Below are positions 37,011 through 54,479 of a DNA stretch of 64,000 nucleotides, in pieces (positions within the stretch are counted from its first letter, which is position 1; every line of letters begins with the position of its first letter). The notes under the pieces are model-generated. The model was given only the letters and a program-made list of their open reading frames with translations. It was not told the origin of the DNA and made no database searches. Source of the stretch: Corallococcus sp. AB011P (GTDB taxonomy: Bacteria > Myxococcota > Myxococcia > Myxococcales > Myxococcaceae). Both the position numbers and the translations under genes were made by a program. Location: contig NZ_RAVX01000011.1 of the NCBI RefSeq assembly GCF_003611605.1, positions 132,811 through 196,810 on the forward strand, in the 5' to 3' direction.

Positions 37011-37040
37011 GCGCGAACAATCCTAGAGTCGCGTCCCACC

Positions 37041-40475: not shown

Positions 40476-40976
40476 CTACTTCGGGGCGGGCCCTGGCTCC
40501 GGGTGCGCTGTCAGCGCGCGATACGCCCGGTTCCAGTAGAGCAACGGTTCTCCGTCCACTCCCCGCTGGATGCGCTCCACACGGCCCACCAGCAACAGGT
40601 GATCGCCGTAACGGTGCACATCCAACAGAGCGCACGCCAGACCCACCAGGCTGTCCTGCACGAAGACGCCTTCGTCGAACATCCGGCCTTCGGCCTCCCC
40701 CGTCGCGCAGCGGACCGACACGTCGCGTTGGATGGTGGACAGCACGCTCACACTGAAGCGGCGGGCGGCCTCCACGCGCTTGAGCGTGCGGGAGGACTGC
40801 TGCAGCGCCAGGACGATGAGCGGAGGCGTCAGGGAGAGGGAGCTGAAGGAGCTGACCGTCGTCGCCGCGATCCCGTCCGCGTCACGGACGGAGACCACCG
40901 CCACCCCGCTCGCCCACCGGGACATCGCCTCCCGGAAGTCCAGGGCCGACACCCCTTCAGTACCGCTCTGAGTCAT
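40476..40976 (-). CDS. Flavin reductase-like (NAD(P)H:flavin oxidoreductase) domain protein
   Basis: Flavin_Reduct pattern (FREAMSRWASGVAVVS...TVSSFSSLSLTPPLI). Confidence 0.7.
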   Translation of the reverse strand: MTQSGTEGVSALDFREAMSRWASGVAVVSVRDADGIAATTVSSFSSLSLTPPLIVLALQQSSRTLKRVEAARRFSVSVLSTIQRDVSVRCATGEAEGRMFDEGVFVQDSLVGLACALLDVHRYGDHLLLVGRVERIQRGVDGEPLLYWNRAYRALTAHPEPGPAPK

Positions 40977-41073
40977 GTGCCGGTCTCTACCACCCGCCCC
41001 GCCACCCGGTCAGCACTTCCTCCAATCCATTGGCGGAATACCAACGCAGTGGCACTGCCCTCCAGGCCCGTCC

Positions 41074-43470
41074 ATGGCCGGATCCACCCGCCCTCCGTAT
41101 GCTGGCCGGCTGGAGGCGCCCATGGATCCGTTGTGGGGGGAGACGCTGAGGCGTCTGGATGCGCTGCTCGTCCAGGTGTGTGACCTGGAGGAGGCCCGCG
41201 CGTCGAAGCTCCGGGGGGAACAGGAAGCGGGCTGGGATGCCGTGCGCACCACCGTGCGCCCCTCCACCGCGGAGCTCGCCTTCAGCTCGGCGCTCGCGGA
41301 GACACCGCTCCTGGGGACTTCGCCTCCCCTTCCCTTCGCCCGCCTGCGGGCTTCGCTTCGCGTGGACACCGTGGAGGAGGAGGCGTTGCTGCTCCTGCTC
41401 GCGACGTGGCTGGAGCCTCGGTATTCGCGCCTGTTCGCCGTGCTCCAGGACGAGACCGCGCAGGGCTGGAACGTGGAGCGGTTGCTGCTCACCGTCCTGG
41501 GACGTACGCCTGCTCGCGCGCAGCGGTTGCTGGCGTCACTGACCGACAGCGGCCTCCTGGTGGGCGGTGGATTGTTGCAGACGGGCGCCGGTGCTTTTCC
41601 TCCCATGCTCCGGCCCGTGGACCTGGCTCCGGAGGTCCGCGAGGCCCTGCTGGAGTTGCCCCGTCCGTCCGTGATGGGTGAGCTTTCTTTGGAATGGCAT
41701 GGACCGGAGGTGCTGCCTTCCTCCTCGCGCGGGACATTCGCCGTCGTGCATGGCGAGGGCGAACGGCTGGGCGTGGCGCTGGGACTCGCTGGCGAAGCCG
41801 GTGTGCCGCTGGTCGTCGCTCGTTGGGCGGGGGCTCCAGAGCCGGTTCCCATGGCCCGGGCCCTTTGGCGTCTGGCGTCCGTGCGCGGCGCGCTGTTGGC
41901 CGTGGACATGTCCGGTGCTGAGCCGGGGCTGGCTCTCTCCGTCACGGAGACGCTGTCCGGGCTGTGCCAGCGGTTTGGCGGGCAGGCCCTGGTGCTCGCG
42001 GACTCCGCGCAGCCTGTCGCCGTGCCGCACCATGAGGCTCCCGCTCTGGGCTTCGTGCAGCGGCGGACCCTGTGGATGGAGGAGGCCCGGGCTCGGGGAC
42101 TGTCATTGACGGAGGCGGAGGCGGGACGGCTGGCGTCTGGCTTTCGGGGCGGGCTTCAGGAGATCCGCCGCGTGTTCGACTCGGCTCCGGGCGGGGGTGC
42201 GGAGGCGCTTCGTGCCGCTGGCTCGCGGCTCGTCCAGGTGCCCTTGCGACATGGCTACCGGCTGGAGGCGTCGCGGACGTTCGCGGAGCTCGTGGTGCGT
42301 GACACCACTCGCGCGGCCTTGGAGCGTTTGCTGTTCTACGTGGCGCAGCGCGACCGCGTCGCCGAGGAGCGGGGCCTGTCTCGCCGCTTCCGGCTGCACA
42401 CCGGCCCGGTGGCGCTGTTCTCCGGACGCTCCGGCACCGGCAAGACCCTGGCCGCGGAGGTCATCGCCCATGCGGTGGGCCGGCCGCTGTACGTCATCGA
42501 CCTGTCCCGGCTCGTCAGCAAGTACGTGGGCGAGACGGAGAAGAACATCGACGAGGTGCTGTCCCACGGCGAGCGCTCCGGCGCCGTGCTGTTCTTCGAC
42601 GAGGCGGACTCGCTGTTCTCCGCGCGCACGGAGGTCAGCAACGCCAATGATCGCTTCGCCAACCTGGAGGTCGGCTTCCTCCTCCAGCGCATCGAACGCC
42701 ATGACGGGCTGATCATCCTCGCCACCAATCTTCAGACGGCCATCGACGAAGCGTTCCTGCGCCGCTTCCACGCGCGCATCGAGTTCCCCTTCCCCGAGGT
42801 CGAGGAGCGCCGCCGCATCTGGGAGCTGATGCTTCCGGAGGGCGTTCCTCGCTTGGGGACGCTCGACCTGGCGGGCCTGGCGCAGCGGCATCGGCTGGCG
42901 GGCGGTGACATCCGCAACGCCGCGCTCAAGGCCATCTTCCTCGCGGAACAGGCCGGTGCCCCGCTGGCCCAGGAGCACCTGGAGCGCGCCGTCGCGCTGG
43001 AGTTGTATGAGCTGGGCCGGCTCTCGCGGCGTCCGGAGGCGGATGCTCCCTCGGATGCGGGCACACGCTTGCGGCGCGTGGCGGAAGTGTTCCAGGAGGC
43101 ACTGGATTCGCAGCTCAGACAACACTTCCTCAAGGAGGTCCACATCCTCCACGGCTCTCCCACCCGGGAGGCGCTCGCGGGGAAGCGGCCCGCTGTGTCG
43201 CTCGCGCTCTACCGGCTGGCGGTCACCCAGAACGGTGCGCTGCGGCTGGGGCTCATCGTCTCCGCGTGGTCCCACCGCGCGGAGGAGGAACATGAGCTGC
43301 TCGGCGTGCTGCATGGGCTGCTCTCACGTGGACTCCCGCACGAGCTGGATGGTCGCAAGCTCACACCTCGCGTCCAGGAGAGTTATGACTTCGACCTGCT
43401 CCACCGCTTCTGGAGCAGTCATGGACATCCCATCCGGGCCTCGCTGGTCCTCGATGTGGAGATGACCTAG
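41074..43470 (+). CDS. AAA+ ATPase with a large N-terminal domain and a C-terminal classic AAA module (Afp15/Pvc15-like by architecture)
   Basis: Walker A GRSGTGKT, Walker B VLFFDEAD, sensor/arginine finger region (ILATNLQTAIDEAFLRRFHARIEF). A start at 41074 or 41122 is equally plausible. Confidence 0.75.
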   Translation: MAGSTRPPYAGRLEAPMDPLWGETLRRLDALLVQVCDLEEARASKLRGEQEAGWDAVRTTVRPSTAELAFSSALAETPLLGTSPPLPFARLRASLRVDTVEEEALLLLLATWLEPRYSRLFAVLQDETAQGWNVERLLLTVLGRTPARAQRLLASLTDSGLLVGGGLLQTGAGAFPPMLRPVDLAPEVREALLELPRPSVMGELSLEWHGPEVLPSSSRGTFAVVHGEGERLGVALGLAGEAGVPLVVARWAGAPEPVPMARALWRLASVRGALLAVDMSGAEPGLALSVTETLSGLCQRFGGQALVLADSAQPVAVPHHEAPALGFVQRRTLWMEEARARGLSLTEAEAGRLASGFRGGLQEIRRVFDSAPGGGAEALRAAGSRLVQVPLRHGYRLEASRTFAELVVRDTTRAALERLLFYVAQRDRVAEERGLSRRFRLHTGPVALFSGRSGTGKTLAAEVIAHAVGRPLYVIDLSRLVSKYVGETEKNIDEVLSHGERSGAVLFFDEADSLFSARTEVSNANDRFANLEVGFLLQRIERHDGLIILATNLQTAIDEAFLRRFHARIEFPFPEVEERRRIWELMLPEGVPRLGTLDLAGLAQRHRLAGGDIRNAALKAIFLAEQAGAPLAQEHLERAVALELYELGRLSRRPEADAPSDAGTRLRRVAEVFQEALDSQLRQHFLKEVHILHGSPTREALAGKRPAVSLALYRLAVTQNGALRLGLIVSAWSHRAEEEHELLGVLHGLLSRGLPHELDGRKLTPRVQESYDFDLLHRFWSSHGHPIRASLVLDVEMT

Positions 43471-43501: not shown

Positions 43502-46500
43502 GTGCGCATCCGTGACCAGGGCCCGAAGGCCTCCGCCAAGGCCATGCTCCGGAAGAGCTCCGGGCGCACTCCCTCGTCCTCCGCGGCCCTTCCCCGTGCA
43601 CCGGGTGTCGTTCCCCGGGGCCCCTCCTCGTCCAATCCCGCACGTGAGCTGGCGGCACGGCTCGCGTCACTGAAGGGCGCGGCGCCTGCCCTCCATGGGC
43701 CCGTGCTTCGCGATGCCGCGCGCGACCTGGAGCGCCGCTGGAGCGACCCGGCGTGGCGCACGCTGGGCGGTCCGCGCTCGCACCTCTTCGAGCCGTGCCC
43801 GGTCCACCCGCCGGAGGTCGCGCTGCTCTCCACGCCCGGCGCCATCGAGGCGGAGCTGGGCATCCACGGACTCTCACCCCAGCCGAACACCGGGCTCGCG
43901 CAGGCGGCTGGCGCGTCCCAGCCCGCGACCCTCGCGCAGCAGGAGGAGGACGCTCGACGGCGTGATGCGGCACGCATGGCCGTCCTGCCTCCGGGCTCCG
44001 CTGAACAGCTCGGAGACACCGCCGCTCGGCTCGCCGAGGCCCGTGCTTCAGACCTCGCACCCGCTGCGGACACTGAAGAGGCGGAAGCGGCGGGACTTGG
44101 GGGCAGCACTTCTCCTGCGCCCGAGGACATCGCGGCGACCACCGTCGATGCGCCCAGCGCGGGCGGCGAACTGGCAACGCCGGATCAAGCTCCCGCGCCC
44201 GCATCCATCCCCACGGGGACGGCTCCCGGCGGCATGGACGACGCCGCGCGCATCGACACGCTGGTGACCGCACTGTCCAGCGAGGGCGATGTCCACATCG
44301 TCGTCCGTCAGGCATCCCCTGGCACAGGGCCCCGGGAGCCTCCTTCCATCCAGACGGATGCCACGGTCGACACGGGCCTCCCCGAAGCGCGCCCGATGGT
44401 GCCCGCACCTCCGGCCGAGATGGACTGGCAGAAGCAACTGGCCGCGGCCCACGCGCAGGGCGTCCAGGGCATCAAGCACGGTCTCGAAACCGCGCCGGAT
44501 CCAACGGGCGCCGTTGCGGCGGTGGAGCCCCCTGCCCGCCTTCCCGCTCCGCCTCCTGCTCCGGCCGCACCTGTCACGGCAGGGCCCATCCCCACTGCCC
44601 CGGTGATGGGCACGGACGCGGATCCGGTCGCCGCATGGAAGGGCCGCATCGCCAGCAGCACTGCGCGGGTCCCGGAGCCCCAGCTTCCTCCGGCGCCCCG
44701 CTACACGTTCAAGATCATCCAGGCCGCCGTGGACCCCAACGCGGTCCGCGCCGCGCGCCTCAAGCAACTGGAGGACGAAGGCAAGAAGGCCATCACCCCG
44801 GCGAAGCAGCCGAAGGACCTTCCGACCATCCCGGACGACCCCACCGGCAAGGCCTCCTCCCTGGTGGATGCGAAGTGCGAACGGAAGCTGGAGGTCAAGG
44901 ACGCCAGGCTCCCCGACCTGCTGAAGAGCCCGCTGGGCCATGTGCCGGAGATTGGCGCGCAGCTCATGCGCGACGACGGCGGGCACACGCTCATCAAGGG
45001 CCCGCTCGGCGACATCGTCTACAAGCCCGGCGGCCCCAAGCCCACCGACCCGGAGAAGCTCAAGGACTGGACGCGCCTCCAGAAGAAGATCACCGCCGAG
45101 GCCGACAAGCAGAAGAAGGCGAAGGTCCAGCCCAAGGAACCCGCGAAGGGCATCACCGTCCTCGAACAGGCCGCTCCCGCGCCCATCAACGTCCCCGACT
45201 TCGCTCGCGTGGACATTGGCGACGTGCTGGCGCGGCTGCTCGCCGCTCCGGACAAGTACGCGGACGCCTCCGTCCAGAAGGCCCGCGAGGCCTATGTCCC
45301 GGGCGGCCTGGATGCGTCCTGGGGCGTGCCGCTCATCGCCGCTGAACGGCCCATCTTCGCCGCGGAGCTCCAGCGCGTCGCGGACGCCGCGCAGATCAAG
45401 AAGGCGGACCTGGACGCGAAGGTGGAGGCCCGCCGCAAGCAACTGGTGGACTCGCACGCCGCCACCACCGGCTCGCTCAGCAAGGCCCACGAGGAGGCGA
45501 AGAAGAGTCTGGAGGAGGGCGGCAAGTCCTTCGCCGACGCCCTGTCGCGCATGCGCGCCTCGCTCGACGCGCAGTCCGAGGCCAAGGCCGCCGCCATCAA
45601 GGGCGGCGTCGACCTGACCGAGGCCCGACGCAAGCGCGACGCGCTCATCGCGGCCGTGGACACCAAGGTGAGCAACTGGGTCGTCCGGTACGACCAGAAC
45701 GGCAAGCGCTTCAAGGAAGCCTTCGCGAAGGCCGCGACCGACCAGATGCACGCCTACGAGCTCGCCGCGCTCCAGGACGAGTGGGAGCTCAAGAAGGACG
45801 CCGGCGATGATCCGGTGAAGCTCAAGGCGGCCACGGAGGCGTACCGCCCCACCAAGAAGTGGCTGGACGACCGCCGCAAGGAGATTGGCGCTGTCGTCGC
45901 GAAGGCGAAGCGCGACATCGACCAGAGCGTGGAGCGCTACCAGCAGGAGCTGCGCGACGCCGGCAAGGAGGCCCGGGAGGTCATCCGCGACTGGCATGCG
46001 AAGCAGATCGGCTACGAGCGCGGATTCTGGGACCGGCTGCTCGGGTGGATCATCGACTGGCTGGACGTCGCCCACGACGAGAGCCGCGCGTGGGAGGCCG
46101 CTCGCGCGGCGGAGAACAAGACGTCGTTGGATCAGAACATGCTGTTCCTCGCGGAGGTGCGCCTGCGCCAGGGCGAGGAGCTGGACGCGGAGACCATCAA
46201 GGGCAACCACGCTCTCAGCGAGGAGCAGCAGGCCATCCTGCTCTCCTACTACGGCAAGGGTGGCAAGGACGCGGTGCAGGCGCTCGCGGAGGGCCTTGCC
46301 GTGCGCATCATCGGCCAGCGCCGCAAGCCGCTGATGGAGGCCCTGGAGAAGGAGCTGCTCGCGTCCACCGACCTGGAGCGGTTGAAGGTCGTCGTCGACC
46401 AGCAGGAGCCCCTCTTCAGCAACCGCGCCCGCAACATCTCCCTCAAGGTCTGGGAGGGCGTGGACCAGTGGGGCACGGACGAGAAGAAGATCTTCGACGC

Positions 46501-49500
46501 GCTCGCCAACCTCAACCCGCTGCAGGGCCACTACATCGAGCTCCTCTACCAGCAGGAGCACGACGAGAACCTGCGCGAGCGGCTCAAGAGCGAGCTGGAC
46601 GACTTCTTCAGCACCACCACGCATGACTGGGACAGGGCGGAAGCCCTGCTCTCCGGCAACGCCGCCAAGGCCGCCGCCGTCGAGCTGAACGACGCCATGG
46701 AGGGCACCTTCCTCGGGACCGGCTGGGGCACGGACGAGGACGCCATCTTCAACCTGCTTCGCGGCAAGACGCCGGAGCAGATCGAAGTCATCAAGAAGGC
46801 CTACCAGCAGAAATACGGCAAGGACCTCGTCGCCCAGATGGACGACGAGCTGCGCAGCGGCGCGCGCACGACGCACGACGCGGACGAGATGCACGCCCTG
46901 GTGGAGGGCCGCACCGAGGACGCGCGCGCCATCGAGATGGACCGCGCCATGCGCGGCGGGTGGTTCTTTGGCCTGGGCACCGACCGCAAGGCCATGGAGG
47001 GCGTCTACGACCGCATCCGCAAGGAGACGGAAGCAGACGCGCAGCAGTACGGCTGGGATACCAAGACGTTCCGCGCGGAGCTGCTCAAGCGCAACCAGGC
47101 CATCGACGCGTCGTATGAGCAGCAATACGGCACGGATTGGACCCAGCGCACCGCGGGCGAGAGCGCGCTCAGCGCCGCGTTCCACGATGAGATGAAGGGC
47201 GAGGACCTCAAGCTCATCGAGGGCCTGCGCGACGACAAGGGACTCCAGGTGGATGCCGCGCGCATCCGCATCGAGCACACCAGCATCCTCTACGCGGACG
47301 ACAAGATCATCCGCGACGCCATGTCCGCGCAGGGCAAGCGGCAGATCGCCGACGCGCGCCGCGACGGATACCTGGACGTCCAGGAGCGGCTGGACATCGA
47401 GCGCAGCCTGGACGAGGCGAAGGTCAAACCCGCCAGCGAGGGCCCGCTCACGGAGGAGGACCGCCGCAAGGGCCGCATCAGCGAGCTGGAGTTCCTGGAG
47501 AAGTGGAGCCCGGAGAAGGTCCAGGCCCGCGTCACGAAGGAACGCAAGGAGGTGGACGACAAGGCGAAGGTCCAGGCCCAGGCTGACGCCCAGGCGAACA
47601 TGAAGGCGCTGGCGGCCGAGTACGACAGCGCCTACGTGGAAGGCACGCACCTGCAGGCGGGCTTCGAGCAGGCCGTCCTGATGGACACCTCCGGCGCGGA
47701 CCGCGACGCCGTCGCGGCGATGCTGCAGAAGGGCTACCTCACCGACGCCGAAATCGTTCAGTACGCCGTGCAGGGCGTAGGCACGGACGAGGACGCGCTC
47801 AAGGAGGTCTTCGCAGGAAAGACAAAGGCGGAGATTCAAGCCATGGCCGAGGAGTGGGCCAAGGACCACCCCGCCGATCCTGGTGACACGCGCACGCCCT
47901 TCGAGCGCTTCCGCGATCGCATCGACGAGGAGCTGAGCGGGCGCGAAGAGTTCGACATCATGGACATGGTGGACTACGGCGAGCCCGTCACGCCCCGGGA
48001 GAAGGCGGACCGGGCCTGGCGCCGGGTGCACTTCGAGGCGCGCTCCACCAACAGCATGGCGTCGTCGGAGTACCAGCTGGTGCTGGACCAGGCGTCCGCG
48101 CTCGACGCAGAGGTGAGCGCGCTGGAGCTGCACGAGCGGATGCGCCCCAAGCCCGGGGACAAGAACTACACCGTCGACGGGCTGCGCAAGTGGCAGGACG
48201 ACTGGGAGAAGAAGTCCGAGCGCGTGCAGCGCCAGGGGGACTACGCGGACGAGGCGGTGCAGATGCACCGCGAGCAGGTGGACTTCATCACCGACCGGCT
48301 GGTGACCATCCTCTCCGTGGTGGTGATGGCGGTGGTGGTCATCATCGGCGTCATCGTCAGCATCTTCTTCCCGCCCGCGGGCGCGGGGTTCTGGGCCGCG
48401 TTCGGCGCGTTCATGGCCAGCACGCCGGTGCTGGTGGGCACGGCGGTGGCGACGGCCGCGGTGACGATGCTGACCAAGGCCGCCCTGAAGGGCAGCGCCT
48501 ACGGCTGGGAGGAGGCCGCCACCGACGCGGGCGTGGGCGCCGTGGATGCGCTCGCCTCCGTGGCCACCGCGGGCATGGGCACGAAGCTGCTCAAGCTGGG
48601 GTTCCTGGCGCGCATGGCGGAGGAAGGCGGCGTGCTGGCGCGCATGACGGCGCACGGCCTGGCCCAGGGCGCGGAAGGCCTGGCGCAGGCGGTGCCCTCC
48701 GCGTTCCTGGGCAACGTCCTCAACGACGAGAACTACAAGGGCGGCAACGCGCTCTTCAACGTGCTGGCCGGCACCGCGATGCAGGCGGCGCCGGGCGCGG
48801 TGATGGCCGGAGGGCTGGGCGCGCTGGGCGGCATCTCCAAGCCCCACGTGCCACCTCGAACCCAGGACCTGCTCCACTTCCGGGGCACGCCCAAGGAGCG
48901 GCTGACCCTCTTCAAGAAGTGGAAGGCGGAGAACCCCGCCGGGGACATGAAGGAGTTCCTGCGCGAGTTCGACGACGGCCTGCTCAAGCAGATGTCGGGC
49001 GACTTCGACCGGCAGCAGCTCCAGCGCGCGATGCGCAAGGAGTTGCTCGAGCACATCCCGCCCGCGCAGCGCAAAGCGTTCGCGAACACGCCCATCGAGA
49101 TGCTCTCCGAGGGTGACTTCGAGTCGCTCACCGGCAGCAAGTCCGCGCAGGCCGTCACGATGTTCCGGCGCGGCAAGCCCACCATCATCATCAAGGCGGG
49201 CGCGGACCTGTCCGACCTGGGTGAGGAGGGCCTGCACCTGCTCCAGCGCCACGACAAGGCGACGCGCGAGCTGGTCAGGTCGCTGGACGAAACGGCGCTG
49301 CGACACTGGGACCAGCTGCCCATCGAGAAGCAGTTCGAGCTCTATCGCAAGAAGCTGCGCCTGGAGATCGCGGCTCAGGAGTCGCTGCTCACGTCGCTGG
49401 AGGGCAAGCGCGGCGTGACCCTGGAGCCCGCGGAGGCCACGCGCCGGATCCGGCAGGGAGAGAAGACGCTGGCGAACCTGCGCCAGCGGATGAAGGAGGT

Positions 49501-51643
49501 GGATGCGTTCACGCCGGTGGAGATGGCGGAGTTCGGCCAGGGCGTGCGCTCGAAGCCTCAGTACCTGAATGAGCCGCCGCGGCTGTTCGGCAAGAAGAAG
49601 CCGCCCGAGGCTCCGCTGGCTCCGGAGGGAAAGCCGCCGGAGGTGGAGGGGGCCCGGCAGCTGGAGATGGAGTTCCATGCGGCGAAGCCGGTGAAGCCGC
49701 CGGAGCCGGAGGTTCCGACGCCCAGGCAGCTGGAGATGGGGTTCCCCGCGGAGAAGCCACCGGAGGTGGTCGTTCCGGAGACGAAGCCGCCAGCGGTGGA
49801 GGCGCCCAAGCCCACCGGCGAACCCGAGGTGCCGAAGGGCGCGCTGGCCGAGGGCGACTGGCCCCAGACGTTCGACGTGCACCCGAACGAAGACGTGGGC
49901 CCGTTCTCCCTCCAGCGTCCCGACCTGAATGACCCGAGGATTGGCCTGGTGGAGCGCACGCCGCTGACGGGGAAGCTGCTCAAGCGCACCACCCAGAAGC
50001 TCAACCCGGGGGAGACGCTGGCCCAGGTGGGACCAGCCTGGGAGGAGCTGAAGTTCGTCAAGAAGGGCCGCGTGTACGAACGGCGCTACTACCGCCTGGT
50101 CGAGAAGACCGACACGAACGGCGAGAAGCACCTCTTCGAGGAGATCCTCTCCGCCCGCTCGGGCAACCGCTGGGAGACGCGCGGCGAATTCGCCCGGAGG
50201 GAGGGAAACGAACTGGAGAAGGTCGCCTCCCTGCGGATGACCGAGGCGAACCTGGGCGACCGGCTGGGGCCGGGCAAGGAGTTCCAGCGCGTCACCTTCA
50301 AGCCCAAGGGCAAGCAGGACAGCGGCTTCGACGAGCTGCTCTTCCAGTTCGACGATGGCGTCAACCCCACCAAGGCGGACGTCCACATCATGGAGGTCAA
50401 GGGGGGCAAGGACGAGCCCCGGTTCCGCAAGTTCACCTCCACCGGAGAGAACCTGCCCGGCAACCTGAAGCAGCTTCGCGCTGCGCTGGACGACCCCAAC
50501 TGGAGGCGCAGCCAACAGCTGAGCCCGAGGCACGCCGCGGTGGTCAGGGACGCCCTGGACGCGTGGCGGGTGAGAATCGAGGTGCGCATCGGGCCCAAGA
50601 CGGAGATGCCCCCCCAGCTGCTGTCCAAGCGCATCGAGCGGGCGGCGAGCGCCTGGCGCGAGTTGGACCTGCTCACCCAGCATCTGCCACCGGGCGCGGA
50701 GGACCTGGCGCTCGTCAAGCGGCTCAAGGCCGACCTCAGGACGGCGCTCAAGTCGGGGAACGTCGACATCGCGGACCGGGCCTTCGACCGGATCGAGGCC
50801 ATCGTGAACGGCGCCACGCCCGGCGAGGGGCTCTTCGCGAAGCATGGCATCGAGCTCGACCCCCGGCCTCCCATGATGCGCGGCCTGGATCCCAACGAGG
50901 TCGCGGGCACCATCGTCCGGATCGACGAGAAGTTCATGCCCCCTCCCCCCGTCAAGACCGCCTCGGTCGAAGACGTGGTGGATGTCGTCACGGGGCTGGA
51001 CGAAACCAAACGGGTCCGCAATCGGATCGCGGGCGGCCGGGTGCTGGGGTGGGGAGACTTCGACATCACCGAGTCCCTTCAATGGAAGACGCGGAAGCTC
51101 CAGGCCTTCGAGCGCGCGCAGCTGCGCGACATCCGCGACCAGCTCGTGCAGATTCCAGAACTCGACCCCAAGCGCTTCAACGCGCTGCCGCCCCTGGAAA
51201 AGGAGCTGGCGCTGCGCGAGGCGGCGGAGGCCACCATGGAGGCGCTGGGCATCCCGAAGTCGCGGCGGCCGGAGGTCCTCTTCAAGCGCCTGCGCGGGGA
51301 CTATGGCTACATGAGCTGGAACTTCCGGCGCCTCAAGGGCGGACGGCTGAAGCCGTACCGGAAGCGGGGCCAGCTGGTCATCGCGAAGGGGCTGACGGTG
51401 GGCGAAGCGGTAGGCACCATCGTCCACGAGACCCGGCACTACTATCAGGCCTATCAGGCCTACCAGCTGTCGCTCCGGCGCCAGGCGCATCCGCTCGCGG
51501 CGCTGTGGGCGGGCAACCTTCCCGGCTCCGGCGGCACGTACCACATCGCGGGCCCGCGCTACTATTCACAACCCATCGAGGTGGACGCGGAGACCTTTGG
51601 CCGCCGTCTCATCGATCTGCTCCCGGGGCGATGGCCCCCTTGA
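43502..51643 (+). CDS. Giant (2713 aa) multidomain protein: disordered Pro/Ala-rich N-terminus, at least four annexin repeats, transmembrane segment(s), Pro/Glu-rich linker, C-terminal HExxH-containing domain. Candidate effector/toxin.
   Basis: GTG start after GGGGGGA. Annexin repeats (QWGTDEKKIFDAL...LKSELDDFF, GWGTDEDAIFNLLRGKTPEQIEVIKKAYQQKYGKDL...DDELRSG, GLGTDRKAMEGVYDRIRKE, GVGTDEDALKEVFAGKTKAEIQAM). Hydrophobic block (ILSVVVMAVVVIIGVIVSIFF). C-terminal IVHETRHYYQ. Uniform high-GC3 codon usage over 8.1 kb. Confidence 0.8.
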   Translation: MRIRDQGPKASAKAMLRKSSGRTPSSSAALPRAPGVVPRGPSSSNPARELAARLASLKGAAPALHGPVLRDAARDLERRWSDPAWRTLGGPRSHLFEPCPVHPPEVALLSTPGAIEAELGIHGLSPQPNTGLAQAAGASQPATLAQQEEDARRRDAARMAVLPPGSAEQLGDTAARLAEARASDLAPAADTEEAEAAGLGGSTSPAPEDIAATTVDAPSAGGELATPDQAPAPASIPTGTAPGGMDDAARIDTLVTALSSEGDVHIVVRQASPGTGPREPPSIQTDATVDTGLPEARPMVPAPPAEMDWQKQLAAAHAQGVQGIKHGLETAPDPTGAVAAVEPPARLPAPPPAPAAPVTAGPIPTAPVMGTDADPVAAWKGRIASSTARVPEPQLPPAPRYTFKIIQAAVDPNAVRAARLKQLEDEGKKAITPAKQPKDLPTIPDDPTGKASSLVDAKCERKLEVKDARLPDLLKSPLGHVPEIGAQLMRDDGGHTLIKGPLGDIVYKPGGPKPTDPEKLKDWTRLQKKITAEADKQKKAKVQPKEPAKGITVLEQAAPAPINVPDFARVDIGDVLARLLAAPDKYADASVQKAREAYVPGGLDASWGVPLIAAERPIFAAELQRVADAAQIKKADLDAKVEARRKQLVDSHAATTGSLSKAHEEAKKSLEEGGKSFADALSRMRASLDAQSEAKAAAIKGGVDLTEARRKRDALIAAVDTKVSNWVVRYDQNGKRFKEAFAKAATDQMHAYELAALQDEWELKKDAGDDPVKLKAATEAYRPTKKWLDDRRKEIGAVVAKAKRDIDQSVERYQQELRDAGKEAREVIRDWHAKQIGYERGFWDRLLGWIIDWLDVAHDESRAWEAARAAENKTSLDQNMLFLAEVRLRQGEELDAETIKGNHALSEEQQAILLSYYGKGGKDAVQALAEGLAVRIIGQRRKPLMEALEKELLASTDLERLKVVVDQQEPLFSNRARNISLKVWEGVDQWGTDEKKIFDALANLNPLQGHYIELLYQQEHDENLRERLKSELDDFFSTTTHDWDRAEALLSGNAAKAAAVELNDAMEGTFLGTGWGTDEDAIFNLLRGKTPEQIEVIKKAYQQKYGKDLVAQMDDELRSGARTTHDADEMHALVEGRTEDARAIEMDRAMRGGWFFGLGTDRKAMEGVYDRIRKETEADAQQYGWDTKTFRAELLKRNQAIDASYEQQYGTDWTQRTAGESALSAAFHDEMKGEDLKLIEGLRDDKGLQVDAARIRIEHTSILYADDKIIRDAMSAQGKRQIADARRDGYLDVQERLDIERSLDEAKVKPASEGPLTEEDRRKGRISELEFLEKWSPEKVQARVTKERKEVDDKAKVQAQADAQANMKALAAEYDSAYVEGTHLQAGFEQAVLMDTSGADRDAVAAMLQKGYLTDAEIVQYAVQGVGTDEDALKEVFAGKTKAEIQAMAEEWAKDHPADPGDTRTPFERFRDRIDEELSGREEFDIMDMVDYGEPVTPREKADRAWRRVHFEARSTNSMASSEYQLVLDQASALDAEVSALELHERMRPKPGDKNYTVDGLRKWQDDWEKKSERVQRQGDYADEAVQMHREQVDFITDRLVTILSVVVMAVVVIIGVIVSIFFPPAGAGFWAAFGAFMASTPVLVGTAVATAAVTMLTKAALKGSAYGWEEAATDAGVGAVDALASVATAGMGTKLLKLGFLARMAEEGGVLARMTAHGLAQGAEGLAQAVPSAFLGNVLNDENYKGGNALFNVLAGTAMQAAPGAVMAGGLGALGGISKPHVPPRTQDLLHFRGTPKERLTLFKKWKAENPAGDMKEFLREFDDGLLKQMSGDFDRQQLQRAMRKELLEHIPPAQRKAFANTPIEMLSEGDFESLTGSKSAQAVTMFRRGKPTIIIKAGADLSDLGEEGLHLLQRHDKATRELVRSLDETALRHWDQLPIEKQFELYRKKLRLEIAAQESLLTSLEGKRGVTLEPAEATRRIRQGEKTLANLRQRMKEVDAFTPVEMAEFGQGVRSKPQYLNEPPRLFGKKKPPEAPLAPEGKPPEVEGARQLEMEFHAAKPVKPPEPEVPTPRQLEMGFPAEKPPEVVVPETKPPAVEAPKPTGEPEVPKGALAEGDWPQTFDVHPNEDVGPFSLQRPDLNDPRIGLVERTPLTGKLLKRTTQKLNPGETLAQVGPAWEELKFVKKGRVYERRYYRLVEKTDTNGEKHLFEEILSARSGNRWETRGEFARREGNELEKVASLRMTEANLGDRLGPGKEFQRVTFKPKGKQDSGFDELLFQFDDGVNPTKADVHIMEVKGGKDEPRFRKFTSTGENLPGNLKQLRAALDDPNWRRSQQLSPRHAAVVRDALDAWRVRIEVRIGPKTEMPPQLLSKRIERAASAWRELDLLTQHLPPGAEDLALVKRLKADLRTALKSGNVDIADRAFDRIEAIVNGATPGEGLFAKHGIELDPRPPMMRGLDPNEVAGTIVRIDEKFMPPPPVKTASVEDVVDVVTGLDETKRVRNRIAGGRVLGWGDFDITESLQWKTRKLQAFERAQLRDIRDQLVQIPELDPKRFNALPPLEKELALREAAEATMEALGIPKSRRPEVLFKRLRGDYGYMSWNFRRLKGGRLKPYRKRGQLVIAKGLTVGEAVGTIVHETRHYYQAYQAYQLSLRRQAHPLAALWAGNLPGSGGTYHIAGPRYYSQPIEVDAETFGRRLIDLLPGRWPP

Positions 51644-51655
51644 GGAAGAGAAGCC

Positions 51656-52183
51656 ATGCGTGGTGCTCCGTCGAGGACAGTCACCTGCTACGTGTGCGGC
51701 TCGAAGTTCACCGTGCACCAGAAGCTGGTGGTCACGAAGCGCGACACGGTCGTGCAGCCCGACCCGGACGCGTGCCCGTACTGCGACACGCCGCTCAAGA
51801 CGATTGGCGCGCTGGGTGAGGGCGAGGCCAAGGGCCTGGTGCTGCTCGCCGCGGGCTTTCCGGATGAGGTGAAGGCCTACGGGAAGCCCGAGGACTATCT
51901 GGAGGAGTTCACGCTGACGGAGAAGGACGTCGACGCGCTGGTGGAGCTGGCGCAAGGGTTGGACTTCGCCGCGTGGGAAAAGGACAACGCGGAGCGGCTG
52001 GCGCGGCGCAAGAACCCGCGCGTGCAGGCCGTGTCCCGCTTCCTGCCGAAGCTCCAGGCACGGATGGAGAACGGTGAGCTTCCTGAGCGGTTGCGGCAGG
52101 CCGCGGAGCACGTCAAGGATGTGTACCGCGCGCGGCGGGAGCGCCACCTCGCGATCTTCGAGAAGCGCCAGAAGCAGCGATGA
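51656..52183 (+). CDS. Hypothetical protein with an N-terminal CxxC...CxxC zinc-ribbon
   Basis: CYVCGSKF...CPYCDT. Starts 13 nt after the giant gene. Confidence 0.55.
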   Translation: MRGAPSRTVTCYVCGSKFTVHQKLVVTKRDTVVQPDPDACPYCDTPLKTIGALGEGEAKGLVLLAAGFPDEVKAYGKPEDYLEEFTLTEKDVDALVELAQGLDFAAWEKDNAERLARRKNPRVQAVSRFLPKLQARMENGELPERLRQAAEHVKDVYRARRERHLAIFEKRQKQR

Positions 52184-52965
52184 CGGGCGACGGAGGACGC
52201 ATGGCGGATCAACCGGACAATCCCCCCACCACCTGGAGCGCGCTCTTCGCGGGCGGCCGTGAAGGCGCGGACGCGAAGGAGTTCCTGACGCTCGTGACGC
52301 CCTCCGCGCTGAAGAACGTGAACCTCCCCGCGCGCGAGGCGGGGTCCCTGTGCAACACGCTTAGCGTGGCGCTGGTGCTGTGCGACCCCACGGAGAGCCG
52401 GGCGCTGGCGGAGCCCCTGTCGCGGCTGGCCGGGCCCGCGCTCCAGCAGGTCGCGGAGGACTTCGACGACCTGCGGCCCGAAGAGGTCATCAACGTGCTG
52501 TCGTTCGTGAACGCCCAGGAGTGCGCGGGCGTGCTGGAGGGACTGCTGGCGAGCTCGCCCGTGGAGGCGTGGCTGGAGGCGCTGATGAAGGTGCGCCGGA
52601 CGCTGCACGACGAGCTGGCGTACCGGTGTGGACTGGTGGCGCTGGCGCTGGGGCCACCGGAGCTGGCGGCCCGGTTCGTGGGCGGCGGGAAGCTGACCCA
52701 GGACTTCACGCCGGGGCAGACGTTCGGGTTCAACGTCCAGGGCTTCGTGCGCTACCTGGCGACGGCGCGGCTGCGGAAGGCCCCGGCCCGGGACGTGCGC
52801 CCGGCGTGGGAGACGTTCGTGGAGGCCTTTCCCCTGAAGGCGGCGGCGAGCACGCTGGAGTGGAAGGACCTCCTCTGGGCGGCGCGCGCGTACTTCGCGG
52901 GCCTGGAGGGGCGGCCGGTGGCGCGGGTGGGTGAGTCCCTGCATGCGCGCGTGAAGCCTGCCTGA
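52180..52965 (+). CDS. Hypothetical protein (ATGA-coupled)
   Basis: Overlapping start/stop with its neighbours. Coding-like codon usage. No known domain recognised. Confidence 0.5.
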   Translation: MTGDGGRMADQPDNPPTTWSALFAGGREGADAKEFLTLVTPSALKNVNLPAREAGSLCNTLSVALVLCDPTESRALAEPLSRLAGPALQQVAEDFDDLRPEEVINVLSFVNAQECAGVLEGLLASSPVEAWLEALMKVRRTLHDELAYRCGLVALALGPPELAARFVGGGKLTQDFTPGQTFGFNVQGFVRYLATARLRKAPARDVRPAWETFVEAFPLKAAASTLEWKDLLWAARAYFAGLEGRPVARVGESLHARVKPA

Positions 52966-54479
52966 TGCACTCCCCTGCCCTCGTCGCGCGGCCGGAGGTT
53001 TCCTTCGAGGCGATGGACCGGGTGCTGTCCGCGTTGGGCTGGTTCCTCCAGTCCGAAAGCCAGACGCCTCCGCTCATCCCCGGCGAGCCGGAGTCCGCGG
53101 TGTATGTGAAGCGCGCGACGGACCTGGCGCTCCACTACACGTTCAACCCGGTGCTCCGGCTGCGGGTGCTCGAGTTCTCCGGACCTGACGCGGTGGGGGA
53201 ATGGGTGGCCGTGCGCAAGGTGGTGCCGGTGCTGGAGGCCCCGGCGCTCGCGGCGCTGCTGACGTCGTCGGAGACGCGGGAGGTGCTGCTGGGGTTGCTG
53301 GCCACGGAGGCGCTGCGGGAGCGCTCGTCGATGGAGCGCGTGGCGGCGCTGCGCTTCCATCCGGAGTTCAGCGTGTCGCGGACCGCGGAGCGCGTGCTGG
53401 CGTCGCTGGTGCCGGACGGGACGGAGGAGGCGTTCGCGCGGCTGAAGGCGGAGAAGGAGGCGCATCCGGATCGCTCCGTGCTGTTCGCGCACCTGCCGGG
53501 GGAGGAGCAGCGGCGGCAGGTGTTGCGCTGGCTCATCCAGGATCAGGCGGCGTCGAATCCGGACATCGACGCGGTGCTGCGCTCCGCGCTGGTGGACACG
53601 GACGCGGAGGTGCGGGTGACGGCGGTGATGGCGGCGGCCCGGCTCCAGGCGAGGGAGGTGCTGCCAGCGCTGCGCGCGGCCCGGATGCCCACGTCGACAC
53701 GGGAGGGCGCGGACCCGAGGGACCGGCAGTTCTATTCGAACCTGCGGGACCTGGTGGCCCAGGTGCTCGCGGGCCGGCCGCTGCCTCCGGAGGGTTCACC
53801 GAAGCGTGAGCGGATGGCTCCGCTCTTGCGCGCACTGTCGGGTCCCGCGGACGTGCGGGACGATCCCACGCTGCTGCTGCATGCGCTCACGACGCCGGTG
53901 GATCCGGGGCCACGTTCGGTGGGACTGCCCGAAGCGGTGGTGGAGCGGGAAGGCACATACCGGCTGCGCCGCTCCGGGTTGGAGGCGCGCTGGGTGCCTC
54001 CGGTGGAGCACTGGCTGGGGACGGGGCCGACGCTGCGGCGCGTGACGTCACCGGGGTTCTTCGTCGCTCGGGTGCCCGTGAGCCGGGCCGCGGCGGCCTG
54101 GGCGATGGCGGCTTCGCAGGGGCCGGTGGGTACGGCGGGGCCGGACGCGGAGGAGCCGCTGCCCTGCACTCTCGTGGAGGCGGAGCAGGTGTGCTCGGCG
54201 CTGTCGCGCATTGAGGGCGTGGAGCTGCGGCTGCCTTCCAGCGAGGAATGGGAGATGGCTGCCCGCGGGCCGGACGGGCGGCTGTTCCCGTGGGGCAATT
54301 CGATGCGGGACGACGGGGCTTCACGGGCTTCGCCCTGGGGCGTGGAGAAGCTCGTGGCTTCGCTTCCGCAGTGGGCGCGGGAAGGCCTGCTGTGCGGGGG
54401 ACGGGAACAGCCGCTGTGCGCTTCGCGCCGCGAGGTGGCGGCGGCGGTGGGCGCCGTCCGATGGGTGCTGGCCTCCTGA
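52965..54479 (+). CDS. HEAT-repeat protein with a C-terminal formylglycine-generating-enzyme (FGE/SUMF1-type) domain
   Basis: PBS-lyase/HEAT-like repeats (VRVTAVMAAARLQAREVLPAL). C-terminal RLPSSEEWEMAARGPDGRLFPWGN, matching the FGE-sulfatase domain core. Confidence 0.6.
   Translation: MHSPALVARPEVSFEAMDRVLSALGWFLQSESQTPPLIPGEPESAVYVKRATDLALHYTFNPVLRLRVLEFSGPDAVGEWVAVRKVVPVLEAPALAALLTSSETREVLLGLLATEALRERSSMERVAALRFHPEFSVSRTAERVLASLVPDGTEEAFARLKAEKEAHPDRSVLFAHLPGEEQRRQVLRWLIQDQAASNPDIDAVLRSALVDTDAEVRVTAVMAAARLQAREVLPALRAARMPTSTREGADPRDRQFYSNLRDLVAQVLAGRPLPPEGSPKRERMAPLLRALSGPADVRDDPTLLLHALTTPVDPGPRSVGLPEAVVEREGTYRLRRSGLEARWVPPVEHWLGTGPTLRRVTSPGFFVARVPVSRAAAAWAMAASQGPVGTAGPDAEEPLPCTLVEAEQVCSALSRIEGVELRLPSSEEWEMAARGPDGRLFPWGNSMRDDGASRASPWGVEKLVASLPQWAREGLLCGGREQPLCASRREVAAAVGAVRWVLAS

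What the first reader, a model, noticed from the sequence alone, without database searches (positions are those of the whole stretch)
43502..51643. Giant 2713-aa protein carrying annexin repeats
At least four segments match the annexin/endonexin repeat almost perfectly (G-x-G-T-D-E ... about 70-aa four-helix unit with YxxxYGKxL...L..ELSG). One example is GWGTDEDAIFNLLRGKTPEQIEVIKKAYQQKYGKDLVAQMDDELRSG. Annexin cores are overwhelmingly eukaryotic and only sporadically reported in bacteria. Here they sit inside a giant protein next to phage-tail-like genes, which suggests a membrane-targeting (Ca2+/phospholipid-binding) module of a delivered effector.
Basis: partly seen in the sequence, partly recalled or inferred. 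Interest (0 to 1): 0.7.

Follow-up and report, generated by a model that had tools for sequence, protein, structure and literature searches.

The report
Giant annexin-repeat injection-system effector
A 2,713-residue Corallococcus protein really does contain five annexin-type repeats and looks like a swappable-toxin effector of a phage-tail-like injection system, but the annexin domains of its orthologue and the link between annexin domains and such systems were already catalogued.

Summary
ORF 43502-51643 (+) encodes a 2,713-aa protein, 99.7% identical to Corallococcus sp. AB045 D7Y21_16885. It matches Pfam Annexin at E=1.2e-21. An AlphaFold model (pLDDT 87) shows five five-helix annexin repeats (aa 972-1492). 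Four keep the GxGT...D/E calcium-site signature. They do not form the canonical four-repeat annexin disc.

The repeats belong to a conserved scaffold: helical region, annexins, a two-helix transmembrane hairpin, a Gly/Ala-rich segment, and a new domain "D1" (invariant ExxHxxQ, ending in PRLFxK). This scaffold occurs in at least 425 protein clusters, mostly 2,000-3,300 aa. After D1 the C-termini vary. Homologues carry PT-HINT, Ntox4, ADP-ribosyltransferase or glutamine deamidase domains. This protein has a PD-(D/E)xK-like motif and an HExxH module.

In 7 of 8 other loci, as in the window, an Afp15/Pvc15-like AAA+ ATPase gene lies beside the giant gene. The window also holds a VgrG-like spike and a DUF6519 tail fibre.

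Best reading: an injection-system polymorphic toxin whose annexin-hairpin scaffold targets membranes. Delivery and calcium/lipid binding are inferred, not shown.

Novelty is modest. Kodavali 2014 listed three annexin domains in the C. coralloides orthologue, and Geller 2021 listed Annexin among eCIS-associated domains.

The parts
40975..43470 (+). AAA+ ATPase (831 aa), Afp15/Pvc15-like: WHD + AAA + weak Pvc16_N; ends 31 nt before the giant gene
   Evidence: Pfam AAA 1.2e-24, WHD 2.9e-8, Pvc16_N 9e-4. An orthologous ATPase lies next to the giant gene in L001, L002, L005, L083, L084, L085 and L088.
43502..51643 (+). Giant gene, 2713 aa (GTG start)
   Evidence: It is 99.7% identical (7 differences) to Corallococcus sp. 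AB045 D7Y21_16885, and orthologues occur across Corallococcus.
43502..44821 (+). aa 1-440: Pro/Ala/Gly/Ser-rich, poorly conserved, probably disordered N-terminus
   Evidence: PAGS fraction 0.48-0.54 per 100 aa. Only aa 376-440 are conserved in the 50%-identity homologues.
44822..46381 (+). aa 441-960: conserved, highly charged region of the scaffold (no family assignment)
   Evidence: Conserved at 20-51% identity in 11 distant homologues. No Pfam, PHROG or PDB match.
46415..46651 (+). Annexin repeat R1 (aa 972-1050), loop QWGTDE, acidic cap E1031
   Evidence: AF2 helices; PDB alignments; motif table.
46661..46903 (+). Annexin repeat R2 (aa 1054-1134), canonical GWGTDE...E1116, hydrophobic extended AB loop GTFLGTGW
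   Evidence: Best Pfam stretch 1073-1117.
46913..47230 (+). Annexin repeat R3 (aa 1138-1243), GLGTDR...E1230, elongated B/C helices, loop GGWFFGLG
47240..47731 (+). Annexin repeat R4 (aa 1247-1410), degenerate loop ILYADD, about 100-aa helical and beta-hairpin insertion
   Evidence: It is degenerate in all 17 aligned family members.
47744..47977 (+). Annexin repeat R5 (aa 1415-1492), canonical GVGTDE...E1477
   Evidence: Its G and T are invariant in 17 diverse family members.
48299..48475 (+). Predicted transmembrane helical hairpin (aa 1600-1623 and 1630-1658, short uncharged loop PPAGAG)
   Evidence: Kyte-Doolittle hydropathy peak 3.2; positions.
48476..48868 (+). Gly/Ala-rich amphipathic segment (aa 1659-1789) with the family-conserved KG.xYGWE motif
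   Evidence: The equivalent region of P0022 weakly matches SseC (E 8.8e-4, below cut-off).
48869..49603 (+). Domain D1 (aa 1790-2034): invariant E1909-x2-H1912-x2-Q1915, E1930, E1955; ends with the invariant P..YL...PRLFxK (aa 2026-2031), the boundary to the variable part
   Evidence: Alignments A2 and A3. 425 clusters in the 1.84-billion-protein library. AF2 gives a beta-sheet plus motif helix, pLDDT 80-92. No Pfam or PDB match.
49874..50851 (+). Domain D2 (aa about 2125-2450): PD-(D/E)xK-like motif GFDE(2275)...hhEVK(2298-2300), alpha-beta-beta-beta-alpha-beta core
   Evidence: Motif conserved in P0020, P0021, P0022, P0032 and P0038. AF2 topology. The fold match is not confirmed.
51089..51640 (+). 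Domain D3 (aa about 2530-2713): HExxH module (VHETRHYYQ, aa 2641-2649), DUF6782-like putative metallopeptidase
   Evidence: DUF6782 E 5e-4 here, 6 members match with best E 2.5e-5, all below the gathering score. AF2 gives a beta-sheet plus HExxH helix, pLDDT about 90.
51656..52183 (+). 175-aa ORF, candidate immunity or accessory protein
   Evidence: No family. Homologue in L001, whose giant also has D3; none detected in L005, whose giant lacks D3.
52180..52965 (+). 261-aa ORF, candidate immunity or accessory protein
   Evidence: No family. Homologues follow the giant in L001 and in Micromonospora L005, both of which carry D2.
52965..54479 (+). 504-aa HEAT + FGE-sulfatase-like protein, syntenic with the giant gene
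55128..55859 (-). 243-aa conserved CIS-cluster protein
   Evidence: Homologues in L001, L005 and L086.
55856..57067 (-). 403-aa Pro-rich protein; only about the first 35 aa are conserved
57064..59226 (-). 720-aa conserved CIS-cluster protein (no family)
59223..60833 (-). 536-aa conserved CIS-cluster protein; weak PHROG tape-measure-like hit
   Evidence: phrog_305 E 1e-4.
60802..60996 (-). 64-aa ORF after the spike gene
61001..62188 (-). VgrG/gp5-like spike (395 aa)
   Evidence: Phage_base_V 1.1e-23, Gp5_trimer_C 2.6e-6; PHROG baseplate hub 4.8e-14.
62767..64000 (-). C-terminal 410 aa of a tail fibre of about 2,535 aa (DUF6519 = eBAP5 anchor + beta-helix); runs off the window
   Evidence: 87% identical to the C-terminus of the L009 protein, which carries DUF6519 8.7e-10 and Beta_helix 1.2e-11. 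DUF6519 is defined as an eCIS fibre anchor in PMC12923769.

Best explanation
The gene encodes a giant polymorphic toxin that serves as an effector of a phage-tail-like contractile injection system (CIS).

Shown:
- The protein has a conserved scaffold: a charged region, five annexin repeats, a transmembrane hairpin, a Gly/Ala-rich segment, and domain D1, which ends in an invariant PRLFxK.
- After D1 comes a variable C-terminus. Homologues carry known toxin domains there.
- The gene sits next to an Afp15/Pvc15-type AAA+ ATPase gene, at the edge of a locus with a spike and a tail fibre.

Inferred:
1. The ATPase recognises the long disordered N-terminus and loads the protein into, or onto, the particle.
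2. After firing, the annexin repeats dock the protein on acidic phospholipids. This step is calcium-dependent and uses the hydrophobic AB loops GTFLGTGW and GGWFFGLG.
3. The adjacent hairpin and the amphipathic Gly-rich segment insert into the bilayer.
4. The C-terminal modules then act. These are D2, with a PD-(D/E)xK nuclease-like motif, and D3, an HExxH peptidase-like module. They may be released by cleavage near the PRLFxK boundary, perhaps by the zincin-like D1.
5. The two small downstream ORFs (175 and 261 aa) are candidate immunity proteins.
For: - Calcium-site motif GxGT(D/E)...D/E is retained in R1, R2, R3 and R5 across 17 family members.
- Hairpin and amphipathic segment.
- The scaffold is conserved over aa about 440-2050, while C-termini differ. 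Homologues carry PT-HINT/Hint_2, Ntox4, ADPrib_exo_Tox or Gln_deamidase_2.
- The D1 family comprises 425 clusters, mostly 2,000-3,300 aa. Six of 17 sampled members hit Annexin and one has an N-terminal eCIS_core domain.
- The ATPase is adjacent in 7 of 8 other loci, often with overlapping stop and start codons.
- The giant gene is the last gene of the cluster in L084, and Imm49 follows it in L085.
- CIS genes: spike, DUF6519 fibre and Tail_P2_I baseplate protein in C. coralloides. A related cluster has gp19 tube, CIS_tube and gp25.
- Downstream ORFs co-vary with D2 and D3 in three loci.
- Precedent: CIS effectors with a transmembrane hairpin, a variable C-terminus and nuclease/immunity pairs (PMC13277306). 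Annexin and eCIS_core are listed as eCIS-associated (PMC8213781).
Against: - There is no direct evidence of loading, ejection, lipid binding or toxicity.
- This protein and its window neighbours lack a detectable eCIS_core/DUF4157 domain. hhalign of D1 or D3 against one eCIS_core sequence gives probability below 1%.
- The D1-D3 model has no significant structural neighbour in the PDB (best E 0.73), so the nuclease and peptidase assignments rest on motifs and topology.
- A strongly conserved scaffold with a transmembrane hairpin and no signal peptide could equally be a producer-membrane protein.
- Sheath and tube genes were not seen for this genome; they would lie beyond the window.
- One family member (L004) has no CIS genes within 10 kb.
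- The five repeats are not arranged as a canonical annexin disc, so annexin-like membrane binding cannot be assumed.
Confidence: 0.58

Rival explanations
1. It is a producer-side membrane protein of an intracellular or membrane-attached CIS. The hairpin would anchor it in the producer's inner membrane, with both ends in the cytoplasm. The annexin repeats would hold it on the anionic inner leaflet. The protein would tether or trigger the particle, or be fired into the producer's own membrane, as described for Streptomyces CisA and Sle1. The C-terminal enzymes would then act in regulated self-lysis, for example during myxobacterial development.
For: - There is no signal peptide.
- The hairpin has a short uncharged loop, with Lys after TM2 and mixed charges before TM1.
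- The annexins lie about 105 residues from the hairpin.
- The scaffold is conserved and co-inherited with the ATPase, whereas cargo is usually variable.
- The long unstructured N-terminus resembles that of CisA (PMC12237407).
- Sle1 is packaged and moves to lipid membranes in an intracellular CIS (PMC13277306).
- Kodavali et al. predicted a cytosolic, membrane-anchored topology for the similar Burkholderiales annexin.
Against: - Swappable C-terminal toxin domains (Ntox4, ADP-ribosyltransferase, PT-HINT) and an Imm49 neighbour are typical of toxins aimed at other cells.
- The locus has a very large beta-helix tail fibre, which implies binding to an external target. CIS-Sc lacks fibres.
- There is no sequence relationship to CisA. 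That protein is 468 aa and has a single membrane pass.
Confidence: 0.22
2. It is a polymorphic toxin exported by some other route, and its position next to the CIS genes is incidental. The annexin repeats would act as a receptor- or lipid-binding module.
For: One homologue (P0029, L004) has no ATPase or tail gene within 10 kb. This protein has no eCIS_core domain.
Against: The ATPase is adjacent in 7 of 8 other loci across Myxococcota, Actinomycetota and metagenomes, often with overlapping stop and start codons. There is no signal peptide and no T5SS, T6SS, T7SS or Rhs trafficking domain.
Confidence: 0.07
3. It is the tape-measure protein of the tail-like particle. It is a long protein with hydrophobic helices and enzymatic C-terminal domains, encoded next to the ATPase, as afp14 is next to afp15.
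For: Its position beside the Afp15-like ATPase; the transmembrane hairpin, as in phage tape-measure proteins; and the precedent of tape-measure-related CIS effectors.
Against: - No PHROG tape-measure hit for any part of the protein or for three homologues.
- About 520 residues form globular annexin repeats.
- Family lengths range from 1,700 to 3,300 aa with variable ends, which does not fit a ruler.
- The 536-aa protein after the spike gives a weak tape-measure-like PHROG hit instead.
Confidence: 0.03

Closest known systems
Bacterial annexins catalogued by Kodavali et al. 2014 (PMC3894181), specifically C. coralloides DSM 2259 gi|380729140 and the Burkholderiales JOSHI_001 annexin
   Same: The C. 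coralloides entry is the 90%-identical orthologue (COCOR_03294). Its listed domains at 970-1040, 1045-1125 and 1415-1480 are R1, R2 and R5 here. The paper also noted transmembrane regions, toxin domains fused to bacterial annexins, and possible undetected repeats between the known ones.
   Different: That study found three repeats. The model here shows five, with R3 and R4 filling the gap. It reported that genomic neighbourhoods gave no general clue and does not mention phage tails. The ATPase/CIS linkage, domain D1 and the PRLFxK boundary are not described there.
eCIS-associated toxins (EATs) with an N-terminal DUF4157/eCIS_core domain and a long linker (Geller et al. 2021, PMC8213781)
   Same: [quoted passage not shown] Annexin PF00191 is listed among eukaryote-like eCIS-associated domains. 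One family member (P0142) carries eCIS_core at its N-terminus.
   Different: This protein has no detectable eCIS_core domain. The 'linker' here is a conserved, structured scaffold. No member of this family has been tested experimentally, as far as the papers read here show.
Sle1/Sle2-type CIS effectors of Actinobacteria (Nagakubo et al. 2026, PMC13277306)
   Same: Large effectors with a helical N-terminal part, a transmembrane helical hairpin and a variable C-terminal functional domain. One is a nuclease-like toxin with a downstream immunity gene. They are packaged in the particle and move to lipid membranes.
   Different: Those effectors have no annexin repeats and rely on a separate DUF4157 partner (Sle2), which is absent here. 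They are encoded upstream of the sheath gene rather than beside the ATPase. Remote tape-measure homology was not detectable here.
Eukaryotic annexins (A1, A2, A4, A5, A6, giardins)
   Different: Here there are five repeats rather than four or eight, with large insertions in R3 and R4, and no canonical disc arrangement. The repeats are embedded in a 2,713-aa multidomain protein with a transmembrane hairpin.
Afp18 and PVC payloads (from my own knowledge of Serratia Afp and Photorhabdus PVC, not tested here)
   Same: Very large toxins encoded beside the afp15/pvc15 ATPase genes. A disordered N-terminal region is needed for ATPase-dependent loading.
   Different: No sequence similarity was found. 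Those payloads have no annexin repeats, transmembrane hairpin or D1 domain.

Membership tests
Annexin repeat (Pfam PF00191) | Significant match to the family model above its gathering score | tested here: met
   77 bits against a cut-off of 25, E 1.2e-21, 3 stretches. PDB annexins at 1e-19 to 1e-13.
Annexin repeat (Pfam PF00191) | Five-helix (A-E) repeat fold of about 70 residues | tested here: met
Annexin repeat (Pfam PF00191) | Type II Ca2+ site signature GxGT-(38 residues)-D/E | tested here: met
   Canonical in R2 (GWGT...E1116) and R5 (GVGT...E1477). Present with an insertion in R3 (GLGT...E1230). R1 has QWGT...E1031 (GWGT or GIGT in homologues). R4 lacks it in every member.
Annexin core (canonical eukaryotic annexin) | Four repeats packed into the curved disc (I+IV and II+III modules) | tested here: not met
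Annexin core (canonical eukaryotic annexin) | Ca2+-dependent binding to acidic phospholipids | not testable with these tools
   Requires a liposome-binding assay.
eCIS-associated toxin / polymorphic toxin | Encoded in or at the 3' edge of a CIS locus, beside the Afp15-type ATPase | tested here: met
eCIS-associated toxin / polymorphic toxin | eCIS_core (DUF4157, PF13699) domain in the protein or in an adjacent gene | tested here: not met
   No PF13699 hit in the giant protein or in the window neighbours scanned. hhalign of D1 and D3 against an eCIS_core sequence gives probability below 1%. It is present in family member P0142.
eCIS-associated toxin / polymorphic toxin | Conserved N-terminal or central part with interchangeable C-terminal toxin domains | tested here: met
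   Scaffold aa about 440-2050 is conserved. C-termini carry PT-HINT, Ntox4, ADPrib_exo_Tox or Gln_deamidase_2 in homologues. The invariant PRLFxK motif marks the boundary.
eCIS-associated toxin / polymorphic toxin | Recognisable toxin domain in this protein | tested here: inconclusive
   DUF6782 is below the gathering score. The PD-(D/E)xK assignment rests on motif and topology only. There is no structural neighbour.
eCIS-associated toxin / polymorphic toxin | Cognate immunity gene immediately downstream | tested here: inconclusive
   Two family-less ORFs co-vary with D2 and D3 in three loci. Imm49 follows homologue P0033.
eCIS-associated toxin / polymorphic toxin | Physical loading into, and ejection from, the particle | not testable with these tools
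   Needs particle proteomics and ejection assays.
Sle1-type tape-measure-related CIS effector | Transmembrane helical hairpin | tested here: met
   aa 1600-1623 and 1630-1658.
Sle1-type tape-measure-related CIS effector | Remote homology to phage tape-measure proteins | tested here: not met
   No PHROG hit for three pieces of the protein or for P0031, P0036 and P0038.
Sle1-type tape-measure-related CIS effector | Adjacent small DUF4157 partner (Sle2) | tested here: not met
   None among the window neighbours.
Sle1-type tape-measure-related CIS effector | Large N-terminal coiled coil | not tested
   aa 441-960 is charged and conserved, but it was not modelled.
Contractile injection system locus | Spike, fibre, baseplate and ATPase genes | tested here: met
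   Phage_base_V spike; DUF6519 fibre; Tail_P2_I in the C. coralloides orthologous locus; ATPase.
Contractile injection system locus | Sheath and tube genes | tested here: inconclusive
   None in the window or in the 10 kb upstream of the fibre gene in C. coralloides. A related cluster (L087) has Phage_T4_gp19, CIS_tube (faint) and GPW_gp25 upstream.

The most novel reading that the evidence does not exclude
The annexin x5, transmembrane hairpin, Gly-rich segment and D1 together form a previously undescribed, widespread membrane-translocation device for giant CIS effectors (at least 425 clusters). On this reading, calcium influx at the puncture site triggers annexin docking. The hairpin and amphipathic segment then insert. 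The zincin-like D1 (ExxHxxQ...E) cuts at the invariant PRLF-x-K boundary and releases whichever toxin module is attached. This would be a bacterial toxin-delivery mechanism built on an annexin.
Probability: 0.2. Interest if true: 0.7.

Novelty: new member of a known kind. Interest (0 to 1): 0.42.

Why it matters
Bacterial annexins have no experimentally established function, and how CIS effectors reach or cross membranes after ejection is poorly understood. This protein places five annexin repeats directly next to a membrane hairpin, inside a conserved scaffold that carries interchangeable toxins and is genetically tied to the loading ATPase. That makes both questions testable in a culturable predator, Corallococcus coralloides DSM 2259 (COCOR_03294). 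If it works as proposed, the scaffold could be used as a modular, membrane-targeting carrier for engineered injection systems. The basic observations, however, were already in the literature as catalogue entries, so this analysis adds a sharper architecture and context rather than a new kind of system.

Tried and rejected
- **D1-only homologue search.** The search for homologous proteins with D1 alone (aa 1790-2060) returned no hit, even though orthologues exist. I treat this as a limitation of the word index. The exhaustive profile search later found 425 clusters.
- **PDB sequence searches.** Nothing significant for the D1-D3 profile, the charged region or the hairpin region. The 720-aa cluster protein and gene X gave nothing useful, and the 536-aa protein gave only marginal hits to designed repeat proteins at E 0.007-0.75.
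- **Structure search of the D1-D3 model.** Foldseek against the PDB gave a best E of 0.73. The nuclease and zincin folds are therefore not confirmed.
- **Is D1 or D3 a diverged eCIS_core/DUF4157?** hhalign probabilities were 0.4-0.7%. Only the ExxHxxQ / HExxHxxQ motif resembles it. Rejected as a membership claim.
- **Tape-measure hypothesis.** No PHROG hits.
- **NCBIfam and PHROGs on neighbours.** Only the spike and a generic AAA ATPase were recognised.
- **Exact look-up of the window's spike protein** failed.
- **Metagenome scan with the gene upstream of the fibre** found nothing.
- **The 2498-aa antisense ORF.** Rejected as a high-GC artefact.
Full report
Yes. ORF 43502..51643 (+) starts with GTG and encodes 2,713 aa. 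Its codon-position GC (GC3 0.91, GC2 0.46) is that of a genuine gene in this roughly 70% GC window. The 2,498-aa antisense ORF fails the same filter. The product differs at 7 residues from Corallococcus sp. AB045 D7Y21_16885. It has full-length orthologues (67-90% identity) throughout Corallococcus, including C. coralloides DSM 2259 COCOR_03294. Pfam-A gives one family above its curated cut-off, Annexin PF00191: E 1.2e-21, 77 bits against a cut-off of 25, three stretches. phmmer against the PDB finds annexin VI (1.2e-19) and annexins IV and V (about 2e-13). The quoted peptide is at aa 1074-1120.

**2. The annexin region.**
I aligned aa 960-1500 with 16 homologues down to 22% identity (A1). The AlphaFold2 model is confident (pLDDT 87.4, pTM 0.79). 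It contains five sets of five helices:
- R1, aa 972-1050
- R2, aa 1054-1134
- R3, aa 1138-1243, with elongated B and C helices
- R4, aa 1247-1410, with about 100 aa of inserted long helices and a beta-hairpin
- R5, aa 1415-1492

The type II calcium-site signature GxGT-(38)-D/E is canonical in R2 and R5. It is present with an insertion in R3. R1 reads QWGT here and GWGT or GIGT in homologues. R4 carries a different conserved motif (Y/W-x-S/D-D) in every member. The AB loops of R2 and R3 are lengthened by hydrophobic residues (GTFLGTGW, GGWFFGLG) and are the only low-confidence spots in the model.

**3. The rest of the protein.**
- aa 1-440 is Pro/Ala/Gly/Ser-rich and poorly conserved.
- aa 441-960 is a conserved, highly charged region with no detectable relatives.
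- After the annexins come two hydrophobic helices (aa 1600-1623 and 1630-1658) joined by PPAGAG, which is a helical hairpin. A Gly/Ala-rich amphipathic stretch follows, with the family-conserved motif KG.xYGWE.
- D1 (aa 1790-2034) is the best-conserved part of the family. E1909, H1912 and Q1915 (ExxHxxQ), E1930 and E1955 are invariant. The domain ends in an invariant P..[YW]L...RLFxK, immediately before sequence conservation stops.
- In the second model (pLDDT 76; individual domains 80-95; linkers disordered), D1 is a beta-sheet followed by the motif helix.
- D2 (aa about 2125-2450) has an alpha-beta-beta-beta-alpha-beta core around GFDE...hhEVK, a PD-(D/E)xK-type motif.
- D3 (aa about 2530-2713) is a beta-sheet followed by the helix VHETRHYYQ.
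- D3 weakly matches DUF6782, a putative metallopeptidase family, in 6 homologues. The best E is 2.5e-5, below the gathering score.
- No significant structural neighbour was found for this model. Profile comparisons do not link D1 or D3 to eCIS_core/DUF4157. The enzymatic assignments are therefore motif-level inferences.

**4. The family.**
Distant homologues (24-50% identity, 1,700-3,200 aa) share aa about 440-2050 and then diverge. Their tails carry PT-HINT/Hint_2, Ntox4, ADP-ribosyltransferase or glutamine deamidase domains. This is the architecture of a polymorphic toxin, with PRLFxK as the boundary motif. An exhaustive profile search with D1 found 425 clusters at E<=1e-3 and 329 at E<=1e-10. 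Most are proteins of 2,000-3,300 aa with D1 at about residue 1,550-2,300. Some have two or three copies. Of 17 diverse members, 6 match Pfam Annexin (best 2.9e-35), and the R5 GxGT is invariant in the alignment. One member (P0142) has an N-terminal eCIS_core (PF13699) domain. Named members include Georgenia faecalis, Micromonospora pattaloongensis and Cellvibrio japonicus.

**5. Genomic context.**
- The gene upstream (40975-43470) is an AAA+ ATPase with WHD, AAA and a weak Pvc16_N match. This is the Afp15/Pvc15 type.
- Convergent on the minus strand are a VgrG/gp5-like spike and a chain of overlapping genes of 64, 536, 720, 403 and 243 aa with no family.
- At the window's right end lies the C-terminus of a protein of about 2,535 aa carrying DUF6519 and a beta-helix. 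DUF6519 was recently defined as the eBAP5 baseplate-anchor domain of eCIS tail fibres (PMC12923769).
- In C. coralloides the fibre gene is preceded by a Tail_P2_I/Kelch baseplate protein. A related metagenomic cluster has gp19 tube, CIS_tube and gp25 genes further upstream.
- Sheath and tube genes were not seen for this genome.
- An AAA ATPase gene (with the WHD domain in four of the seven loci) lies beside the giant gene, directly or one gene away, in 7 of 8 other loci. Stop and start codons often overlap. The giant gene sits at the 3' end of the cluster.
- One locus is an orphan with no CIS genes nearby.
- Imm49 follows one homologue.
- The 261-aa and 175-aa ORFs downstream of the giant gene co-occur with D2 and D3, respectively, in the three loci where this could be checked.

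**6. Most likely mechanism (confidence about 0.58).**
The protein is an injection-system polymorphic toxin. The architecture, the family variability and the synteny are shown. The following steps are inferred:
- ATPase-dependent loading through the disordered N-terminus. The analogy to Pvc15 and PVC payloads is from my own knowledge.
- Calcium-dependent docking of the annexin repeats on acidic lipids.
- Insertion of the hairpin and the amphipathic segment into the membrane.
- Action of the nuclease-like and peptidase-like modules, possibly after cleavage at the PRLFxK boundary.
- Immunity conferred by the two small downstream ORFs.

**7. Rival explanations.**
- Producer-side membrane protein of an intracellular or membrane-attached CIS (0.22). 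The hairpin topology, the lack of a signal peptide and the conservation of the scaffold fit this reading. Streptomyces CisA and Sle1 provide precedents. The large tail fibre and the toxin/immunity modules argue against it.
- A toxin unrelated to the CIS (0.07).
- A tape-measure protein (0.03).

**8. What was already known.**
Kodavali et al. 2014 listed the C. coralloides orthologue (gi|380729140) with annexin domains at 970-1040, 1045-1125 and 1415-1480. Those are R1, R2 and R5 here. They also noted transmembrane regions, fused toxin domains and possible hidden repeats, but they found no clue in the genomic neighbourhoods. Geller et al. 2021 listed Annexin among eCIS-associated, eukaryote-like domains predicted to be effectors. 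They also described DUF4157-to-toxin proteins with linkers of more than 1,000 aa. This analysis adds the five-repeat model, the non-canonical packing, the hairpin-D1-PRLFxK scaffold, the size of the family, and the tight ATPase linkage. I rate it a new member of a known kind, of moderate interest.

**9. Limits.**
All capped searches that could have assigned D1, D2 and D3 to folds were used without a significant hit. Sle1 could not be compared directly. No experiment bears on lipid binding, loading or toxicity.

Noticed in passing
window 30863-33139 (-): A 759-aa protein with Vault, Vault_2, Vault_3 and Vault_4 repeats plus the MVP shoulder domain (E 5e-45 to 4e-6). It is a major-vault-protein homologue in a myxobacterium, a family usually regarded as eukaryotic.
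   Followed up: no
window 62767-64000 (-); L009 1828-9420; L086 10001-17614: A tail fibre of about 2,535 aa (DUF6519/eBAP5 anchor + right-handed beta-helix). It is conserved at 36-90% identity and nearly constant length (about 2,400-2,750 aa) across Myxococcota, Actinomycetota and Proteobacteria.
   Followed up: partly
window 55128-60996 (-): Five translationally coupled genes after the spike (64, 536, 720, 403 and 243 aa) have no curated-family or solved-structure match; only the 536-aa protein gives weak PHROG hits. They are nevertheless conserved from Corallococcus to Micromonospora. The 403-aa protein is Pro-rich and conserved only in about its first 35 residues.
   Followed up: partly
P0133, P0134, P0138, P0142, P0144 (D1-family representatives): Some family members carry two or three tandem copies of D1, each with the motif DEGPHLxQ. 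The meaning of this duplication is unknown.
   Followed up: no
window 52965-54479 (+): A HEAT + FGE-sulfatase-like protein lies downstream of the giant gene. It is syntenic in L001, and L002 has a weakly similar gene. It may be an accessory factor.
   Followed up: no
window 34981-39773 (+): A sigma-70 region-4 protein, an NHL/SGL beta-propeller protein and a Ser/Thr kinase with WD40/PD40 repeats lie a few genes upstream of the ATPase-giant pair. They could be regulators of the locus.
   Followed up: no
window 27466-29199 (-): A LysM + T6SS_VgrG3-like_C (peptidoglycan hydrolase-type) protein, E 8.7e-53. It is separate from the CIS cluster.
   Followed up: no
window 1345-3891 (+): A globin-coupled chemoreceptor (Bac_globin + PAS + MCPsignal) lies within a Che cluster (CheA/CheW fragment, CheB) at the left end of the window.
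   Followed up: no
Kodavali 2014 Table S1: The Burkholderiales JOSHI_001, Gemmatimonas aurantiaca and Rhodococcus imtechensis annexins have domain spacings (for example 880-1022 then 1297-1352) like R1/R2...R5 here. They may belong to the same scaffold family. This was not tested.
   Followed up: no
tool behaviour: The word-indexed homologue search with the 271-aa D1 segment returned nothing. The full-length query and the exhaustive profile search both found many relatives containing it.
   Followed up: yes
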